Both the position numbers and the translations under genes were made by a program. A stretch of 64,000 nt of DNA, from NCBI GenBank assembly GCA_903877885.1, contig CAIRFN010000006.1:156332-220331 (forward strand), given 5' to 3'. The notes beneath the pieces were generated by a model. The model was not told the origin of the DNA and did not search any database. It saw nothing but the letters and a program-made list of their open reading frames with translations. This document shows positions 11,624 to 42,657 of this stretch, one piece after another; the first letter of the stretch is position 1, and every line of letters begins with the position of its first letter. Source of the stretch: an uncultured Candidatus Berkelbacteria bacterium (lineage in GTDB: Bacteria > Patescibacteriota > UBA1384 > UBA12157).

Positions 11624-11945
11624 TGGTGGAGCTGACGAGAATTGCACTCGTGTCCAAAAAGATTTTGACACAATTCTTTAAAAACAAGTTTAAATTTGTC
11701 TTCGTTTTTTCTTCTATCGACTAAGACAACCTAGATAGATATAGACCAAATTGTGACGCCCGTTCTCTCCGGTTGGTCATCAAAGAGACAGACGCTGCTG
11801 TAAAGCTTAAGCTATTAGGCTAGAGCTAAGGCAGGTGTAAACGTATTTTTTGCGTTTAACATTTTGCCATTTGATTTAACGAGTCAAAATGACGTGCTCG
11901 ACTTGAAATTGTGGGTTGATCTTCCTGTCGAATCTAAACAGCCCC
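11624..11945 (-). ncRNA. ssrA: tmRNA (SsrA), one-piece; predicted tag AKNTFTPALALA
   Basis: The minus-strand 5' end GGGGCUGUUUAGAUUCGACAGG matches the tmRNA acceptor strand plus the UUCGAC motif. The 3' end GGACACGAG-UGCAAUU-CUCGU-CAGCUCC-A-CCA parallels the E. coli 3' end, including the G3:U70 pair. The internal frame GCA AAA AAU ACG UUU ACA CCU GCC UUA GCU CUA GCC UAA UAG sits at plus 11812-11853. Confidence 0.85.
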
Positions 11946-24445: not shown

Positions 24446-25012
24446 TTATTCAGCTTTTTCTTCAGTCTTTTCTTCTTCTTTTTCTGCGACTTCTTCAATA
24501 ACCGCTTCCTCGGCTGGTTTTTCTTCAACGGTTTCGGTCTTTTCAGCTACTTTTTCCGCTTCTTCTTCCTTAATCTCGGAAATTGCTTCTTCGGCAGCAG
24601 CCATTAACGGATCAACATGATCAGCGGCTTCTTTTTCAGCTTCGACTTGAGCGTCAAAAGCTTCTTTAGCCGCTTCTTTTTCGGCTTGTTCACGAGCTTT
24701 TTCGACTTCTTCTTCAGCCTTGATTCGTTCTAATTCTTTTTTGCTAATTTTGCGATATTTTTTGACCACAATGGATTTGTGTTCCATTTTTTCACGAGTC
24801 ATAAGTTTAGCGACGGTGTTTGAAGGTTGTGCACCTTTTTTCATCCAATCAATCGCTTTCTCTTGGTTTAAAACTAATTCTTTAGTTCTTGGGTCATAGT
24901 TACCGATCATTTCCACATATGGAGAAGTAACCGCTTTGCGGCTATCGGCGACGACGATTCTATAATTTGGTTGTCCTTTTTTGCCTGTTCGGCGAAGTCT
25001 AATGACTAACAT
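24446..25012 (-). CDS. rpsP: 30S ribosomal protein S16 with a long charged C-terminal extension
   Basis: MLVIRLRRTGKKGQPNYRIVVADSRK core, then a roughly 100-aa Lys/Glu/Ala-rich tail. Confidence 0.85.
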   Translation of the reverse strand: MLVIRLRRTGKKGQPNYRIVVADSRKAVTSPYVEMIGNYDPRTKELVLNQEKAIDWMKKGAQPSNTVAKLMTREKMEHKSIVVKKYRKISKKELERIKAEEEVEKAREQAEKEAAKEAFDAQVEAEKEAADHVDPLMAAAEEAISEIKEEEAEKVAEKTETVEEKPAEEAVIEEVAEKEEEKTEEKAE

Positions 25013-25150
25013 GTTTTTTCCTCTACCCTGAATTTAATTTAAGGGTCAATTTTATTTAAAATCGATTCCTTAGAGGGCATCTTTGTGACAGATGTTTAGA
25101 AATCTTTAATAATTATATCAAATTTACTATCTATTGTCAATCAGATATAA

Positions 25151-26503
25151 CTATTTTATTTTTCCAAACCATTTTGGCTTGGTCCCGTGGAAGCCTTTGA
25201 TAAAATCGGTAAAGCTCATGATCTGTTTTCCTTCGGGTTGAACCACATCTAAAACAAGTTTGTTATCGTCCATATGAGTTTGATGGATAATCAATCTTTT
25301 ATCATCAATAAAGGTGTAAGATCCTGGCCAAGGAAAATAGGCGCGAATTTGCGCGTCGATTTTGGCAGTTGGTTTTGTCCAATCAATTTCGCCGTCTTCT
25401 TTTTTAAATTTTTTTGTTCGGCTAGCTAAATTTTCATCTTGATCCATTGGATGAAGTTTATTATGGATTAGTCGAGGCAGTGAATGATAAAGCAATTTAA
25501 CGGCGGCGACAGCCAAGCGTTTTTCCAAACTTAAGCTATTATCATCTTCATCAATATCAATTTTGATTTGTGAAAGGACTGGCCCTTTATCAATTTCTGG
25601 CACCATTTTAATAAGTGACACGCCAGTTTCAACATCATTATTTAATATTGCAGTTTGAATTGGGGTGGCACCGCGGTATTTTGGTAAAAGTGATGGATGC
25701 AAATTAAGGGCGCCGAACTTGGCGACAGTTAAAATGTCATTTTTTAGAATTTGGCCGAAGTCGCTTAAAATAATTATATCTGGATCTTGAGCTTTAATTT
25801 TTTCTAAATCCAAATTAATGTTTTCGGTTTCTAGAATTGGTAAATCAAACCTAATCGCTTCTTCGTGTACGTTCGTGAACTTAGTTGCTTTATCTCGTCC
25901 GGCTGGTTTGGCTTTTTCAGTTACAACCAGCGGGATGTTTAAACCCAAAGAAATTAAGCCGCGCAAAATAATCGCTGCAAATTCGCCGGAGCCAACGAAA
26001 ACAATTTTCTTTGATTTTAAATCTGGAAAATCGCTTAAATATTTTTCTCGAACTCGGTCAGTAAACATAATACCGTTTAAATGATCGATTTCGTGTTGCA
26101 AAATGCGGGCTAAAAAACCTTTGGGCGCAATCTTTTTAGTTCGACCCATCTCATCTTGATATTTAACTTTAAGTTTTTTGCTTCGCTCGGTTTCCAATTC
26201 AATTGGTGGAATTGAAAGACAACCTTCATCAGCCAAATCAGTTTCATTGGAATATTCAATAATTTCCGGATTGACAAAACAAGTCAAAGGAATAATTCCC
26301 CGATCTTCATAAGGACATTCGACAATTAAAACTCGATTATCAATGCCAAGTTGATTGGCAGCTAAACCAACGCCGCCTTCGCCCCGTAAAGCTTTGGTCA
26401 TAGCTTTAATTTGATCAATTAAAGATTCGTTAAAATCGACCACTTTTTGAGTTGTCTTTTTTAAGATTTTATTTGGAACTGTGACTATTTTTAAGTTTTT
26501 CAA
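25151..26503 (-). CDS. Fused peptide deformylase / methionyl-tRNA formyltransferase (Def-Fmt)
   Basis: The N-terminal half has PDF motifs GVGLAANQLG, EGCLSIP and QHEIDHLNG. The C-terminal half is Fmt (KIVFVGSGEFA ... NLHPSLLPKYRGATPIQTAILN). A single 450-aa ORF. Confidence 0.85.
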   Translation of the reverse strand: MKNLKIVTVPNKILKKTTQKVVDFNESLIDQIKAMTKALRGEGGVGLAANQLGIDNRVLIVECPYEDRGIIPLTCFVNPEIIEYSNETDLADEGCLSIPPIELETERSKKLKVKYQDEMGRTKKIAPKGFLARILQHEIDHLNGIMFTDRVREKYLSDFPDLKSKKIVFVGSGEFAAIILRGLISLGLNIPLVVTEKAKPAGRDKATKFTNVHEEAIRFDLPILETENINLDLEKIKAQDPDIIILSDFGQILKNDILTVAKFGALNLHPSLLPKYRGATPIQTAILNNDVETGVSLIKMVPEIDKGPVLSQIKIDIDEDDNSLSLEKRLAVAAVKLLYHSLPRLIHNKLHPMDQDENLASRTKKFKKEDGEIDWTKPTAKIDAQIRAYFPWPGSYTFIDDKRLIIHQTHMDDNKLVLDVVQPEGKQIMSFTDFIKGFHGTKPKWFGKIK

Positions 26504-27659
26504 TGTTTTTCTCGTATAACTTTTCTAATTTAATGGCACAGGAAAGACTGGAAAATTCTTTAGCGCTTTCTTTGGCATTTTTACCCATCTCTTTACGTTT
26601 TTCGGGATTATCTAAAAGCGATTCTATTTTACCAGCAAAATCATTAATATTCAAGTCTGTAAGGTAACCATCATGGCCATTTCTTACTAAATCCGATGGC
26701 CCCATTTTATTTACAGCCACAACTGGAATGCCGGCAGCCATCGCTTCAGTCACCACTATACCTTGAGTTTCGGTGATTGAAGGAAAAACAAACAAGTCGG
26801 CCGCACCATAAAATTTGTTAGCATTTTTCTTTTGCATCATGTCGGTAAAACTAACATAATCATTAATGCCCATTTTTTTAGCTAGGTCTTCATAAAAATT
26901 AAGTTCTGGCCCGCCGCCGACCATTAATAAATGAACATCAGCCAAACGGTGTTTTTTTAATCTGTTAGCTAAAATCTTTTTAAAAGCTTTGAATAAAAAA
27001 TCGATATTTTTTTCTTTGGCAATTCGGCTTAAATACAATAGAATTTTTCTATTTTCCGGAATATCCCATTTGGCGCGAATGACTTTATCGGGAAAATGAT
27101 GCTCCATTTCCTCAATATGAATGCCAGTCGGAATAGCTTCAATTGGCTTTGTTACGCCATAAGTTTTTAAAATTCTGGCCATTGAAGGTGACGGCGTAAT
27201 AACCTGGTCGCAATCGTTGCAAAAATCGCGGCTAATATTTTTCAAGATTTGTTTAGCGGCTAAATTGAAAATTGGGACATAATGAGTATATTCGGCAATT
27301 AAAGTATGGTAGGTATAAACCATCGGAATGTTGAGTTCGTGTGCCACTCTCATTCCCAGTCGGCCCATGGTAAAAAGATGTTGCGAATGAATAATATCTA
27401 ATTTTAATTCTTTAGCTTTTTTAATAACTTTGGCAGCTGCAGTTGGCAAAGCAATTGGATAGTTTTCTTCGCCCGGCCAGGTGAAAGAAGGAAAGCGAAA
27501 AACATGATCCGGATCTTTGTCTTTAAAACCTTTAGTTTTTGGTGTAAAAACGTAAATCTTATGACCTCTTTTTTCCAACTCTTCGCGAAAGGTTTCAATC
27601 GAAACCACCACGCCGTTTAAGGTTGGCAAATAACATTCAGAAAAAATCCCAATATTCAT
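26469..27659 (-). CDS. Glycosyltransferase family 4
   Basis: GT-B C-terminal motif FVFPSITETQGIVVTEAMAAGIPVV. Confidence 0.8.
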   Translation of the reverse strand: MNIGIFSECYLPTLNGVVVSIETFREELEKRGHKIYVFTPKTKGFKDKDPDHVFRFPSFTWPGEENYPIALPTAAAKVIKKAKELKLDIIHSQHLFTMGRLGMRVAHELNIPMVYTYHTLIAEYTHYVPIFNLAAKQILKNISRDFCNDCDQVITPSPSMARILKTYGVTKPIEAIPTGIHIEEMEHHFPDKVIRAKWDIPENRKILLYLSRIAKEKNIDFLFKAFKKILANRLKKHRLADVHLLMVGGGPELNFYEDLAKKMGINDYVSFTDMMQKKNANKFYGAADLFVFPSITETQGIVVTEAMAAGIPVVAVNKMGPSDLVRNGHDGYLTDLNINDFAGKIESLLDNPEKRKEMGKNAKESAKEFSSLSCAIKLEKLYEKNIEKLKNSHSSK

Positions 27660-27693
27660 ATTTCTCCTAACTTTCTTCTACTATAACAAAATA

Positions 27694-29502
27694 TTAGACA
27701 ATATCGAAGGGGTCGACGTCAATAATCCAACCTTTGCCAAGTTTTTTTAAAAATTCATCAAGTGTAGTGTTTCTTTTTGGTAATTTTAAAATCAGTTGAT
27801 AGTAAAAATAATCGCGTTTTTGTAAATTCCGCGCTGGCGCCGGGCCTAAAATATCTAATTCAATTTTTTCTTGTGTGACAATTTTTTGAATTTGGGTTTT
27901 TACTTTTTGCGTTTCCAGCTTGCATTCAGCTTCGCTGTAACTTCGATATGCTAATTTAATTAATTTAACGAAGGGTGGAAAATTGAATTTTTGGCGATTA
28001 ACTATTTCTGTTTGGTAAAATTTTTCATAATCCAAACTGGCCAGTGAACCGATAAAGCTGCTTTCTGATAATCGCGTTTGAATTATACCTGTTTCGGCAA
28101 TGCTCAAAAATTTGTAAAAGTTCTGAAATGATTTTTCAAAATTTCGAAATCCAGGAAAATTTAAACTTTGGTCTGCGTCTATAATAGCGACAAATTCGAT
28201 TACTGGAAAGATTTTTTTAAGCGCAAAACTGGTCACTACCGCAATATTCCAATCAGAATTTAAATCGTCTTCATGATCCTTCTCCACTCGAATTATTTTG
28301 GCATCTGGATATTGTTTTTTAATAATGCTAACTATTTTCCCAGTCGTTAAACCAATATCTTTTAAGTTTAAACTTTGGCATTTCGGACATTTAATAATAT
28401 TGGAAAATTGTTTTTCGCAATTATTACAATAAAAATTATCATCAATAATATTTAATGGCAACTGACATTGGGGACAAACATAAGTCCAACCACAATCGTC
28501 GCAAGTTCGACGCGAAGCTTGACCGCGACGATTTAAAACCAAAATCGCTTTTTGATTATTTTCTAAAATCAATTCGATTTTTTCTTTGAGCGGTTGACTT
28601 AAAATTTGTTTTTCAAAAGTCATATTTACAATCGAAATATCGGGGACTTTTTCGTTTTTATTTTTATACAAGAATTTATTAGTTTTAGCTTGGAAATAAG
28701 TTTCAATACTCGGTGCGCTTGAGCCTAGTACTAGACTCACGTTCGTGAGCTTGGTAAGTTGTTGCGCCACTTTAATCGCGCTAAATCTTGGTGATTGGTC
28801 GGATTTATAAGTTTCATTTTCCTCTTTGTCAATAATAATTAAACCCAAATTTGGCGCAGGCGAAAAGATTGCCGAAGTCGAACCTAAAATAATTTTTGCT
28901 TCCCCCCGACGAATTTTATCCCAAGCTAACCACCGCTGGGTCAGTGTTAAATTACCGTGAATAATTGTAATATCTTCTTTAATATATTTAGTAAAATAAT
29001 CAATCAAACTTAAATCCGGCACTAAAATAATTGTTTGTTTTTTCTGCGCCAACGTTTTTTTAATCGCCCGTAAATAGAATTTTAATCTGCTTGCAAAATC
29101 CGCCACAATTAAATATTGTTTAGCGTTAATATTTGGACTAGACTGGATTTCAATATCATAGTTAAGATTTTTCTTGATTGTTCGTTTGGCCGGTGGTACT
29201 ACAAAGTTGAACAACGTCTTACTAAAATCGCTTAAATAATAATCGCTCATCCACTTAGCTAAATCGGTTTGTGTTTTGTAGACGACTGGCACTGGGTCGA
29301 TCACGGCGACGATTGGTTTTAAATTTAGAATTTGCGACGAGCGTTTAATTTCTACAATTATGCCTTCAATATTTCTGCCGCGAAACGGCACCAAAACTAA
29401 AAGACCGATTTTAATCATCGGTAAAATTTCCGGCGGGATTGAGTAATCAAAAATTCCCTCACCCCGAGTTCTAATTTTCGGCACAACCTTGGCAATTTGC
29501 AT
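27694..29502 (-). CDS. priA: Primosomal protein N' (PriA) homolog with degenerate helicase motifs
   Basis: A 3'-DNA-binding-domain-like N-terminus, a PriA-like segment ILGSTSAIFSPAPNLGLIIIDKEENETYKS, and a Cys-rich zinc region (CDDCGWTYVCPQC..CNNCEK..CPKCQS). No GxGKT Walker A is present, and DExH is replaced by DKEE. Confidence 0.7.
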   Translation of the reverse strand: MQIAKVVPKIRTRGEGIFDYSIPPEILPMIKIGLLVLVPFRGRNIEGIIVEIKRSSQILNLKPIVAVIDPVPVVYKTQTDLAKWMSDYYLSDFSKTLFNFVVPPAKRTIKKNLNYDIEIQSSPNINAKQYLIVADFASRLKFYLRAIKKTLAQKKQTIILVPDLSLIDYFTKYIKEDITIIHGNLTLTQRWLAWDKIRRGEAKIILGSTSAIFSPAPNLGLIIIDKEENETYKSDQSPRFSAIKVAQQLTKLTNVSLVLGSSAPSIETYFQAKTNKFLYKNKNEKVPDISIVNMTFEKQILSQPLKEKIELILENNQKAILVLNRRGQASRRTCDDCGWTYVCPQCQLPLNIIDDNFYCNNCEKQFSNIIKCPKCQSLNLKDIGLTTGKIVSIIKKQYPDAKIIRVEKDHEDDLNSDWNIAVVTSFALKKIFPVIEFVAIIDADQSLNFPGFRNFEKSFQNFYKFLSIAETGIIQTRLSESSFIGSLASLDYEKFYQTEIVNRQKFNFPPFVKLIKLAYRSYSEAECKLETQKVKTQIQKIVTQEKIELDILGPAPARNLQKRDYFYYQLILKLPKRNTTLDEFLKKLGKGWIIDVDPFDIV

Positions 29503-41987: not shown

Positions 41988-42321
41988 ATTATATCATTTT
42001 AATGTAAATCAAACTATTTTTATTTGTTATTAAAAAAGGGGACAGACGAGTTGTCCCCAGGAAGGGTGAGAAATTCGAGATTAATGGCGAGAAGTTTTGT
42101 GTAAGGTTCTGGTGTAGGTTAGATGTTTGGTGGAATTAGTGTAATTAAGTGGTAGATCTTTTAAGATCCAGAATAAAATAGCAAAAAGCAAAATTCCAAA
42201 GAACAAATCAATTATCGTAAAACTTCGATAACGTTGTTGTAGGTGCATAATTTCCTCCCTTAGCCTCGAATATAATATCATATCAAACCAAGAAAATTTC
42301 GTCAACACTGATGTTTTTGGA

Positions 42322-42657
42322 TACGAAAAAAGCCTTAAGTAATCGATAAGCCAGGTTCTGTTTAGGCAGCATCTATCTTCGCGTCGGACCCAGTGGACAT
42401 CTGTCGAGCAGACATTGATGATAATGGGCCATCCGACTTGCACCGAGCTAGGCTTGCCACAGACATACATTACTGTATGAACGCGTGAGCTCTTACCTCA
42501 CGATTTCAACCTTACCTCCGCGGTTAGCGGATCGGCGGTATATTTTCTGTTGCGCTGTTCTCGAACCTCACGGCCCGCTCATTTTCACGAGCGCTGTACT
42601 CTTTGGTGCCTGGACTTTCCTCACTCTTGCGAGCGGAACTGCCTCGATTACTTAAGG
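42322..42657 (-). ncRNA. rnpB: RNase P RNA
   Basis: The minus-strand reading contains GAGGAAAGUCCAGGCACC (the conserved GGAAAGUCCGGGCUCC region) and ACAGAACCUGGCUUAUCG (the conserved 3' region). A 13-bp P1 helix CCUUAAGUAAUCG/CGAUUACUUAAGG is followed by a U-run. Confidence 0.8.

What the first reader, a model, noticed from the sequence alone, without database searches (positions are those of the whole stretch)
25151..26503. Single-gene fusion of peptide deformylase and methionyl-tRNA formyltransferase
A 450-aa ORF has complete PDF motifs (GVGLAANQLG, EGCLS, HEIDH) in its N-terminal third, followed in frame by a full Fmt (N-terminal Rossmann domain, HPSLLPKYRG). def and fmt are normally separate adjacent genes. 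The fusion couples the enzymes that add and remove the formyl group and could reflect channeling or regulation.
Basis: seen in the sequence. Interest (0 to 1): 0.5.

Follow-up and report, generated by a model that had tools for sequence, protein, structure and literature searches.

The report
Conserved deformylase–formyltransferase fusion gene, Berkelbacteria
One gene in this candidate-phylum (Berkelbacteria-like) genome really does encode the enzyme that formylates initiator Met-tRNA joined to the enzyme that later removes the formyl group, but this fusion recurs in public genomes and a similar one has been shown to work, so it is a real but fairly ordinary find.

Summary
Window 25151..26503 (- strand) is one 450-aa ORF. 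It has a complete peptide deformylase (residues 4-153), a 19-residue helical linker, and a methionyl-tRNA formyltransferase (166-450). All catalytic motifs of both enzymes are intact.

It is not an assembly artefact. At least 120 distinct full-length homologues (73-40% identity) have the same three domains, and those that carry a name are Candidatus Berkelbacteria or Patescibacteria. They sit in the same gene neighbourhood. The closest homologue is encoded identically on 11 contigs, and the three places shown come from three different samples. Linker length is nearly fixed across the family, with no insertions.

The architecture is not new. UniRef already labels members "Multifunctional fusion protein". 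A 2025 paper (PMC12690207) reported a def-fmt fusion in Exiguobacterium that complements an E. coli def-fmt deletion, and the window protein aligns colinearly with it (38% identity). At least 51 fusion clusters with unrelated linkers rank among the best 150 representatives, which suggests repeated independent fusion.

Origin is simple to explain. Nine of the 80 loci fetched have def and fmt in one frame, separated by a single stop codon.

Substrate channelling is not supported by pathway logic. Fixed 1:1 co-expression is the likeliest benefit.

One difference from textbook Fmt is a C-terminal domain about 25-30 residues shorter. Short stand-alone Fmt genes in other Patescibacteria suggest this is not special to the fusion.

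The parts
25151..26503 (-). Fused def-fmt coding sequence, 450 aa plus stop, TTG start
   Evidence: ORF listing. Pfam and NCBIfam matches. At least 120 full-length homologues with the same architecture.
26066..26503 (-). Peptide deformylase catalytic domain (residues 1-146). It carries motif 1 GVGLAANQ (26351-26374), motif 2 EGCLS with the metal-binding Cys95 (26213-26227), and motif 3 HEIDH with His137, Glu138 and His141 (26081-26095).
   Evidence: The motif residues G44, G46, A49, Q51, E93-S97, H137, E138 and H141 are invariant in 24 diverse family members. The predicted fold matches solved PDFs (2ew7, TMt 0.86).
26009..26065 (-). Junction (residues 147-165, FTDRVREKYLSDFPDLKSK). This is the C-terminal helix of the PDF running straight into the first strand of Fmt. 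There is no stop codon and no in-frame ATG, GTG or TTG between M146 and L180.
   Evidence: Codon listing. AlphaFold2 predicts helices at 147-158 and 160-164 with pLDDT about 96-97. No inserted columns in the linker among 120 homologues. The HExDH-to-GxG distance is 32 residues in 99 of 112 homologues and 30 in another 10.
25469..26008 (-). Fmt N-terminal (Rossmann-type formyltransferase) domain, residues 166-345. It carries the loop-1 insertion KPAGR (199-203), catalytic Asn267 and His269 within NLHPSLLPKYRG (25670-25699), and Asp305.
   Evidence: Pfam PF00551 and TIGR00460. In the residue-by-residue alignment to E. coli Fmt 1fmt, N108, H110, D146 and the PAGR loop are all matched. These residues are invariant across the family.
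25151..25468 (-). Fmt C-terminal domain, shortened (residues 346-450), plus the stop codon
   Evidence: PF02911 matches only profile positions 2-50 of 100. About 25-30 residues corresponding to E. coli 247-276 are absent. The short form and its basic tail (KRLIIH..VQPEGK..KP.WF.KI) are conserved across the family. Foldseek still aligns about 305 columns to B. anthracis Fmt 4iqf with TMt 0.82.
26469..29502 (-). Upstream genes on the same strand: priA (27694-29502) and a GT4 glycosyltransferase (26469-27659). The glycosyltransferase 3' end overlaps the def-fmt start by 35 nt, so the genes are probably co-transcribed.
   Evidence: Pfam matches. The same order PriA-GT4-Def/Fmt is seen in related contigs L081-L084. 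PriA lies directly upstream in L085.
25112..25140 (-). Perfect sigma-70 consensus (TTGACA, 17 nt, TG-TATAAT) just after the def-fmt stop and upstream of rpsP (24446-25012). It probably marks the 3' boundary of the def-fmt transcription unit.
   Evidence: 12 of 12 matches with an extended -10. This is a consensus match only, and function was not tested. rpsP is identified by Pfam PF00886.

Best explanation
This is a genuine bifunctional gene. One polypeptide carries an active-looking type-1 peptide deformylase at the N-terminus and an initiator Met-tRNA formyltransferase at the C-terminus. The two are joined by the deformylase's own C-terminal helix with no flexible spacer. It is the local version of the ordinary def-fmt gene pair, at its usual place next to priA. 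It most likely arose when the def stop codon was lost in an ancestor whose def and fmt lay in the same reading frame with nothing but that stop between them. The fused state has since been maintained by selection throughout the Berkelbacteria-like lineage. Each half is inferred to do its normal job. Fmt formylates Met-tRNAfMet from 10-formyl-THF before initiation, and PDF removes the formyl group from nascent chains. The likely gain is obligatory 1:1 co-production from one start codon in a streamlined genome, which avoids having Fmt without PDF (a state known to be toxic). Metabolite channelling is not the likely gain. Shown here: the ORF, the domains, the intact catalytic residues, conservation of the fusion, and the confident compact model. 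Inferred: both activities, the origin by stop-codon loss, and the selective reason.
For: ORF and domains. Catalytic residues of both enzymes are present and invariant in the family. At least 120 distinct 90%-identity clusters of about 445-460 aa have the same three Pfam domains, at 73-40% identity; the members that carry a name are Candidatus Berkelbacteria or Patescibacteria. Synteny is conserved (S26 peptidase, LigB/Memo, AMMECR1, PriA, GT4, Def-Fmt, S16, KH, TrmD, L25, radical SAM) in three independent relatives. The closest homologue is encoded identically on 11 contigs, and the three places shown come from three different samples. Linker length is fixed with no indels, and mean identity to the query is similar in the PDF (0.54), linker (0.44), Fmt-N (0.52) and Fmt-C (0.55) regions. 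The AlphaFold2 model has pLDDT 94.4 and pTM 0.91 with a helical linker. The protein aligns colinearly across the junction, at 38% identity over 401 aa, with the Exiguobacterium fusion (P0138). A member of that genus's fusion complemented E. coli delta def-fmt: PMC12690207. A plausible precursor state was observed: nine loci from other phyla have def and fmt in one frame separated by a single stop codon, several as '...*M'. No canonical in-frame start lies near the junction, so Fmt can only be made as part of the fusion.
Against: No enzymatic or expression data exist for this protein or any Berkelbacteria homologue. The Fmt score exceeds the NCBIfam cut-off only narrowly (212 against 201.5), because the C-terminal domain, which binds tRNA in E. 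coli, is shortened. In E. coli the PDF C-terminal helix docks on the ribosome (my own knowledge, not tested here). In this protein the helix is short and capped by a roughly 32-kDa Fmt, so ribosome binding may differ. Whether the genome has a second stand-alone PDF, as Exiguobacterium does, could not be checked from 64 kb. The selective reason (stoichiometry or streamlining) is an inference.
Confidence: 0.82

Rival explanations
1. The fusion has a mechanistic meaning beyond co-expression. The rigid body would place Fmt at the ribosome via the PDF domain, or take PDF off the ribosome, or let one domain regulate the other.
For: The fusion is conserved over deep divergence with a length-invariant helical linker. 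The model is compact and very confident (pTM 0.91), which points to a fixed inter-domain geometry rather than beads on a string.
Against: The two reactions share no intermediate, by established pathway knowledge: fMet-tRNA is used by the ribosome before PDF acts, and formate is not the Fmt donor. Fusions in other lineages have linkers of very different length and composition (HExDH-to-HxSLLP distance 82-193), so no particular geometry is generally required. The Exiguobacterium fusion works in E. coli (PMC12690207). I had no model coordinates or PAE map to examine the interface.
Confidence: 0.12
2. It is a sequencing or assembly artefact: a lost stop codon or a compensated frameshift that joins two separate genes.
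For: Many genomes have def and fmt in the same frame separated by one stop, so a single base error could mimic a fusion.
Against: The uninterrupted fusion is found in at least 120 homologue clusters from NCBI, JGI, ENA and Logan assemblies. It occurs in three syntenic contigs down to 44% identity. The linker length is conserved and the linker sequence is semi-conserved (FTxRxxExxx..xPxxK..I.F.G). No reads were available for this particular window.
Confidence: 0.01
3. It is a fused ORF in which one half is catalytically dead, for example a pseudo-Fmt with a crippled tRNA-binding domain, while the real activity is supplied by another gene elsewhere in the genome.
For: The C-terminal domain is truncated. 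Exiguobacterium keeps a second PDF (PMC12690207). Family member P0096 has HPSLLPKYIG in place of ...RG, plus insertions. The Zambryskibacteria fusions appear to lack the loop-1 insertion.
Against: In the window protein and 24 aligned relatives, every catalytic and loop-1 residue of both enzymes is invariant. ORFs of similarly short length (about 273-292 aa stop-to-stop) hold the stand-alone fmt of other Patescibacteria, which suggests the short form is their normal enzyme. No second def or fmt lies in the window.
Confidence: 0.04
4. Two proteins are made from one ORF, by internal translation initiation or by proteolytic cleavage at the linker.
For: An in-frame ATG at codon 146 exists upstream of the junction.
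Against: Position 146 is not conserved in the family. No ATG, GTG or TTG lies between codons 147 and 179. The linker is predicted to be a well-packed helix, not an exposed loop.
Confidence: 0.03

Closest known systems
Def-Fmt fusion of Exiguobacterium (Bacillales), described and complemented in E. coli delta def-fmt in PMC12690207 (Mol Biol Evol 2025); represented here by P0138 / WP_021067074.1, 461 aa
   Same: The domain order is the same (PDF, then Fmt N domain, then Fmt C domain) and the linker is short. The alignment is colinear across the junction at 38% identity over 401 residues. All catalytic motifs are present.
   Different: It comes from a different phylum and most likely an independent fusion event. 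The linker is 6 residues shorter and unrelated in sequence. The two fall in different parts of the Fmt-domain tree (low resolution). The window protein's alignment to it ends at residue 404, so the C-terminal parts do not align. Exiguobacterium also carries a second PDF, which is unknown for this organism.
Berkelbacteria and Patescibacteria proteins already in databases as 'Multifunctional fusion protein', 'peptide deformylase' or 'methionyl-tRNA formyltransferase' (for example Berkelbacteria bacterium GW2011_GWA1_36_9 and RBG_13_40_8; P0054, P0031, P0001)
   Same: This is the same protein family: 50-73% identity over the full length, the same linker length, the same short C-terminus and the same gene neighbourhood.
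   Different: The window's sequence itself is not among the hits. The nearest cluster is 73% identical, so it is a new species-level member and nothing more.
Canonical separate def and fmt genes (E. coli def-fmt operon; PDB 1bs4 for PDF and 1fmt/2fmt for Fmt)
   Same: The two enzymes, the catalytic residues and the genomic adjacency are the same. The position next to priA matches the fused loci of the related contigs fetched here.
   Different: Here there is one polypeptide. The PDF C-terminal helix is shortened and continues into Fmt. The Fmt C-terminal domain lacks about 25-30 residues.
ArnA, a bifunctional formyltransferase-decarboxylase fusion (PDB 1z7e)
   Same: It contains an Fmt-like formyltransferase domain fused to another enzyme, and its formyltransferase part matches the query at E about 1e-34.
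   Different: The partner enzyme, the substrate (UDP-Ara4N) and the domain order all differ. NCBIfam ArnA scores 177.7 against a cut-off of 777, so this protein is not a member.

Membership tests
Peptide deformylase (Pfam PF01327; NCBIfam TIGR00079) | Profile score above the curated cut-off | tested here: met
   PF01327 scores 149.8 bits against 22.8, over residues 4-153 and profile positions 2-152 of 156. TIGR00079 scores 145.6 against 103.95.
Peptide deformylase (Pfam PF01327; NCBIfam TIGR00079) | Three catalytic motifs: GxGxAAxQ, EGCxS (metal Cys), and HExxH (two metal His plus catalytic Glu) | tested here: met
   GVGLAANQ at 44-51, EGCLS at 93-97 and HEIDH at 137-141 were read in the DNA. 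They are invariant in 24 relatives.
Peptide deformylase (Pfam PF01327; NCBIfam TIGR00079) | PDF fold | tested here: met
   The AlphaFold2 model (pLDDT 94.4) matches H. pylori PDF 2ew7 (TMt 0.86) and Synechococcus PDF 4dr9 (rmsd 1.9 A).
Peptide deformylase (Pfam PF01327; NCBIfam TIGR00079) | Deformylase activity on N-formyl-Met peptides | not testable with these tools
   This needs an enzyme assay or complementation.
Methionyl-tRNA formyltransferase (NCBIfam TIGR00460; Pfam PF00551 + PF02911) | Equivalog profile score above the curated cut-off | tested here: met
   TIGR00460 scores 212.2 against 201.5. The margin is narrow and the match covers profile positions 2-249 of 315. The related families ArnA, PurN, PurU and others all score far below their cut-offs.
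Methionyl-tRNA formyltransferase (NCBIfam TIGR00460; Pfam PF00551 + PF02911) | Catalytic Asn/His/Asp and the SLLPxxRG motif (E. coli N108, H110, D146) | tested here: met
   The alignment to 1fmt matches N267, H269, D305 and HPSLLPKYRG. These residues are invariant in the family.
Methionyl-tRNA formyltransferase (NCBIfam TIGR00460; Pfam PF00551 + PF02911) | Loop-1 insertion (E. coli residues about 34-49, including Arg42) that recognises the initiator tRNA acceptor end. Its role comes from my knowledge of the 2FMT complex. | tested here: met
   TEKAKPAGRDKATKF aligns with E. coli TQPDRPAGRGKKLMP. K199, G202 and R203 are invariant.
Methionyl-tRNA formyltransferase (NCBIfam TIGR00460; Pfam PF00551 + PF02911) | Complete C-terminal beta-barrel (tRNA-binding) domain | tested here: inconclusive
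   PF02911 is matched above its cut-off (57.5 against 21.1) but only over profile positions 2-50 of 100. About 25-30 residues are missing relative to E. coli. The model shows three long strands and two short helices at 395-448. Foldseek still aligns about 305 columns to 4iqf. ORFs holding stand-alone fmt in other Patescibacteria are similarly short.
Methionyl-tRNA formyltransferase (NCBIfam TIGR00460; Pfam PF00551 + PF02911) | Formylation of Met-tRNAfMet | not testable with these tools
   This needs an enzyme assay or complementation.
Def-Fmt fusion proteins (as in Exiguobacterium, PMC12690207) | A single uninterrupted ORF with PDF at the N-terminus and Fmt at the C-terminus | tested here: met
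Def-Fmt fusion proteins (as in Exiguobacterium, PMC12690207) | Colinear homology across the junction with the described fusion | tested here: met
   BLASTP against P0138 (Exiguobacterium): 38% identity over 401 aa, query 5-404 against 3-392, E 3e-89.
Def-Fmt fusion proteins (as in Exiguobacterium, PMC12690207) | Descent from the same fusion event (one family rather than convergence) | tested here: inconclusive
   Linkers differ in length and sequence. In the neighbour-joining tree of Fmt domains, fused proteins are scattered among unfused ones and the query clade is separate from Exiguobacterium. The tree is poorly resolved, so convergence is likely but not proven.
Def-Fmt fusion proteins (as in Exiguobacterium, PMC12690207) | Both activities retained (complementation of E. 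coli delta def-fmt) | not testable with these tools
   This was shown only for the Exiguobacterium alkaliphilum gene (PMC12690207).
Def-Fmt fusion proteins (as in Exiguobacterium, PMC12690207) | Presence of a second stand-alone PDF in the genome, as in Exiguobacterium | not testable with these tools
   None was found in the 64-kb window (tblastn). The rest of the genome is not available.

The most novel reading that the evidence does not exclude
In the Berkelbacteria-like lineage the fused protein may be the only deformylase and the only formyltransferase in the cell. Its fixed-length helical linker and confidently predicted compact three-domain body may reflect a selected inter-domain geometry. 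One example would be Fmt riding on the ribosome through the PDF domain. Another would be a PDF that has given up the usual C-terminal-helix docking. That would make this the first lineage known to run the whole N-formyl cycle from one obligate polypeptide.
Probability: 0.2. Interest if true: 0.45.

Novelty: new member of a known kind. Interest (0 to 1): 0.22.

Why it matters
The practical value is mainly in annotation. These proteins are named inconsistently in databases: 'peptide deformylase', 'methionyl-tRNA formyltransferase' or 'hypothetical protein' in NCBI records, and 'Multifunctional fusion protein' in UniRef. Surveys that look for separate def and fmt genes will therefore miscount them in candidate-phyla genomes.

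Biologically, the case adds a second, much larger and older lineage to the single published example, a group of four Exiguobacterium reference genomes. It also shows that Def-Fmt fusion is a recurrent outcome that lies one mutation away from the common same-frame def-stop-fmt arrangement.

If the fusion proves to be the sole PDF and Fmt of these organisms, it would be a natural test of two questions: whether PDF needs a free C-terminal helix to work on the ribosome, and how much of the Fmt C-terminal domain is dispensable. Neither point overturns current understanding.

Tried and rejected
It returned 80 loci from other phyla and no Berkelbacteria, so it could not give the distribution within the lineage. 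It did yield three other fusions, the same-frame def-stop-fmt precursors, and short Patescibacteria Fmt genes.

2. The afdb50 fold library, which would have given named full-length matches, was not installed. I used pdb instead, and no solved chain covers both halves (TMq at most 0.58).

3. MAFFT reported an 'O' residue in P0096, which briefly looked like a read-through stop at the junction. It was my script writing 'None' for a sequence whose motif is HPSLLPKYIG. P0096 has no unusual letters and no internal stop.

4. The neighbour-joining tree of Fmt domains is star-like. I use it only as weak support for multiple origins.

5. A search for a second def or fmt in the window by tblastn found nothing better than E = 0.14. 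This says nothing about the rest of the genome.

6. An internal start for a separate Fmt is rejected. There is no conserved or canonical start codon near the junction.

7. Model coordinates and PAE were not available, so I could not measure the distance between active sites or check whether the PDF covers the tRNA-binding face of Fmt.

8. Literature searches for Berkelbacteria plus deformylase found no papers. Searches for 'def-fmt fusion' and variants found only PMC12690207.

Full report
**The observation**

The window has a single open reading frame at 25151..26503 on the minus strand. It is 450 codons long and starts at a TTG, which is the first start codon after the upstream in-frame stop.
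- GVGLAANQ at residues 44-51
- EGCLS at residues 93-97
- HEIDH at residues 137-141
- HPSLLPKYRG at residues 269-278

Pfam matches Pep_deformylase at residues 4-153 (E 6e-44), Formyl_trans_N at 165-339 (E 1e-30) and Formyl_trans_C at 366-414 (E 2e-15). Both NCBIfam equivalog models score above their curated cut-offs: fmt TIGR00460 at 212.2 against 201.5, and pept_deformyl TIGR00079 at 145.6 against 103.95. ArnA, PurN, PurU and other formyltransferase families fall far below theirs.

**Anatomy of the two halves**

In a residue-by-residue alignment to E. coli Fmt (PDB 1fmt), the catalytic Asn108, His110 and Asp146 correspond to N267, H269 and D305. The loop-1 insertion that distinguishes Fmt from other formyltransferases (E. 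coli ..DRPAGRGKK..) is present as KPAGRDKA.

The one departure is in the C-terminal domain. The Pfam match covers only the first half of the profile, the TIGR00460 match stops at profile position 249 of 315, and about 25-30 residues equivalent to E. coli 247-276 are absent. This does not look special to the fusion. Stand-alone fmt genes of Saccharibacteria, Paceibacterota and Daviesbacteria lie in ORFs of about 273-292 aa (stop to stop, so an upper bound). Unfused proteins of 279-298 aa also align with the query's Fmt part from about residue 165 to 438-448.

**The junction**

The junction (residues 147-165, window 26009-26065) has no stop codon. There is no in-frame ATG, GTG or TTG between codons 147 and 179, so Fmt cannot be translated on its own from a canonical start.

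**Is it an artefact?**

No. A search of 5.8 billion proteins returned at least 120 distinct 90%-identity clusters of about 445-460 residues with the same three Pfam domains. They cover 99-100% of the query at 73% down to 40% identity. They come from NCBI, JGI, ENA and Logan assemblies. Where named, they are Candidatus Berkelbacteria or Patescibacteria group bacteria.

In an alignment of all 120, every catalytic motif of both enzymes is at least 90% conserved. The short C-terminal tail is conserved too. In 24 diverse members the motif residues are invariant.

The linker has no inserted column in any homologue. The distance from HExDH to the first Fmt GxG motif is 32 residues in 99 of 112 sequences and 30 in another 10. 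Mean identity to the query is similar in the four regions: PDF 0.54, linker 0.44, Fmt-N 0.52, Fmt-C 0.55.

Three relatives at 73%, 48% and 44% identity sit in the same neighbourhood: LigB/Memo, AMMECR1, PriA, (GT4), Def-Fmt, S16, KH, TrmD, L25, radical SAM. This is also the gene order in the window. The closest homologue is encoded identically on 11 contigs, and the three places shown come from three different samples. A sequencing error cannot explain this. Reads for this particular window were not available, so that single check remains formally open.

**Structure**

AlphaFold2 with the 24-sequence alignment gives mean pLDDT 94.4 and pTM 0.91, with no low-confidence segment. The linker is predicted as two helices, 147-158 and 160-164. 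This suggests a compact three-domain body rather than two domains on a flexible tether.

Foldseek against the PDB finds Fmt structures for the C-terminal two thirds (B. anthracis 4iqf, about 305 columns, TMt 0.82) and PDF structures for the N-terminal third (2ew7, TMt 0.86). No solved chain covers both, by fold (TMq at most 0.58) or by sequence.

**How widespread, and is it known?**

Among the best 150 of 1.84 billion 50%-identity representatives, 51 carry both PDF and Fmt motifs in one protein. Their linkers are very different: the HExDH-to-HxSLLP spacing ranges from 82 to 193 residues, and some linkers are acidic or Gly/Pro-rich.

Named examples include Exiguobacterium (P0138; UniRef 'Multifunctional fusion protein'), Candidatus Fermentithermobacillaceae and other Patescibacteria. 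Among 80 loci from other phyla, three are fused: Fermentithermobacillaceae L001 and Zambryskibacteria L006 and L007.

A 2025 paper reports the def-fmt fusion in the four Exiguobacterium reference genomes and notes a second PDF in those genomes. [quoted passage not shown] The window protein aligns colinearly with the Exiguobacterium fusion across the junction, at 38% identity over 401 residues.

It was the only paper describing such a fusion that my full-text searches turned up, and none pairs Berkelbacteria with deformylase. So the architecture is known and experimentally validated in one genus. The Berkelbacteria family is in the databases but apparently undiscussed.

**Origin**

Nine of the fetched loci have def and fmt in the same frame, separated by one stop codon. 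Several read '...E*MRVLF..'. One substitution in that stop would create exactly this kind of fusion.

Three observations suggest repeated independent fusions: the scatter of fused proteins among unfused ones in a poorly resolved neighbour-joining tree of Fmt domains, the unrelated linkers, and the distant taxa. The event in the Berkelbacteria-like lineage is old, because both the 50-73% clade and the 40-44% clade carry it.

**Mechanism**

The best-supported reading is that each half does its ordinary job, and the fusion fixes 1:1 co-production from one start codon. The gene appears to be the last in a priA-GT4-def/fmt unit. The GT4 stop overlaps the def-fmt start by 35 nt. A perfect sigma-70 consensus for rpsP follows the def-fmt stop.

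Direct channelling is not plausible on pathway grounds. The ribosome uses fMet-tRNA before PDF sees the nascent chain, and formate is not the Fmt donor. A subtler coupling cannot be excluded, given the fixed linker and the compact model. One example would be Fmt carried to the ribosome. Another would be altered PDF docking, because the C-terminal helix is short and capped. I rate this at about 0.1-0.2.

**Verdict**

The fusion is real, conserved and almost certainly functional. It is a new member of a known kind, and interest is low to moderate.

Noticed in passing
window 25112-25140 (- strand): A perfect sigma-70 consensus promoter (TTGACA, 17 nt, TATAAT, with an extended -10 TG; 12 of 12 matches) lies in the 138-nt gap between the def-fmt stop and rpsP. 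It is the only 12 of 12 match in the 5.9 kb scanned.
   Followed up: no
window 24446-25012 (- strand): Ribosomal protein S16 is 188 aa, but the Pfam S16 domain covers only residues 8-64. The rest is a long Glu/Lys/Ala-rich C-terminal extension. Relatives also have long S16 proteins (185 aa in L084, 149 aa in L085).
   Followed up: partly
L006 5728-7188 and L007 5992-7296 (Zambryskibacteria): These independent Def-Fmt fusions appear to lack the roughly 30-residue segment that holds the Fmt loop-1 'PxGR' insertion. By eye, the sequence goes from ..ITSAREPLPVEKL.. straight to the DxxxVASFG strand, and the HExDH-to-HxSLLP distance is about 107-110 instead of 132. If this is real, initiator-tRNA recognition may differ.
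   Followed up: no
L002, L003, L004, L010, L011, L012, L015, L017, L024: In nine loci from several phyla, def and fmt are in the same reading frame and separated by a single stop codon. In some the fmt ATG follows immediately. This arrangement is one mutation away from a fusion.
   Followed up: partly
L084 6001-7539 (P0096, on a 929-kb contig): This family member is 512 aa. It has inserts in both halves, including a roughly 50-residue Gly/Arg/Ser-rich insert before the DFGQ strand. It also has HPSLLPKYIG instead of ...YRG, so the otherwise conserved Arg is lost.
   Followed up: no
window 42331-42655 (- strand) and 11624-11945 (- strand): RNase P RNA (class A, 154 bits) and tmRNA (tag AKNTFTPALALA) are present. 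The listed 129-aa ORF at 42081..42470 overlaps the RNase P RNA and is probably spurious.
   Followed up: no
window 26469-27659 (- strand): A GT4 glycosyltransferase lies between priA and def-fmt, and its 3' end overlaps the def-fmt TTG start by 35 nt. The more distant relative L085 lacks this gene, with PriA directly upstream of Def-Fmt.
   Followed up: partly
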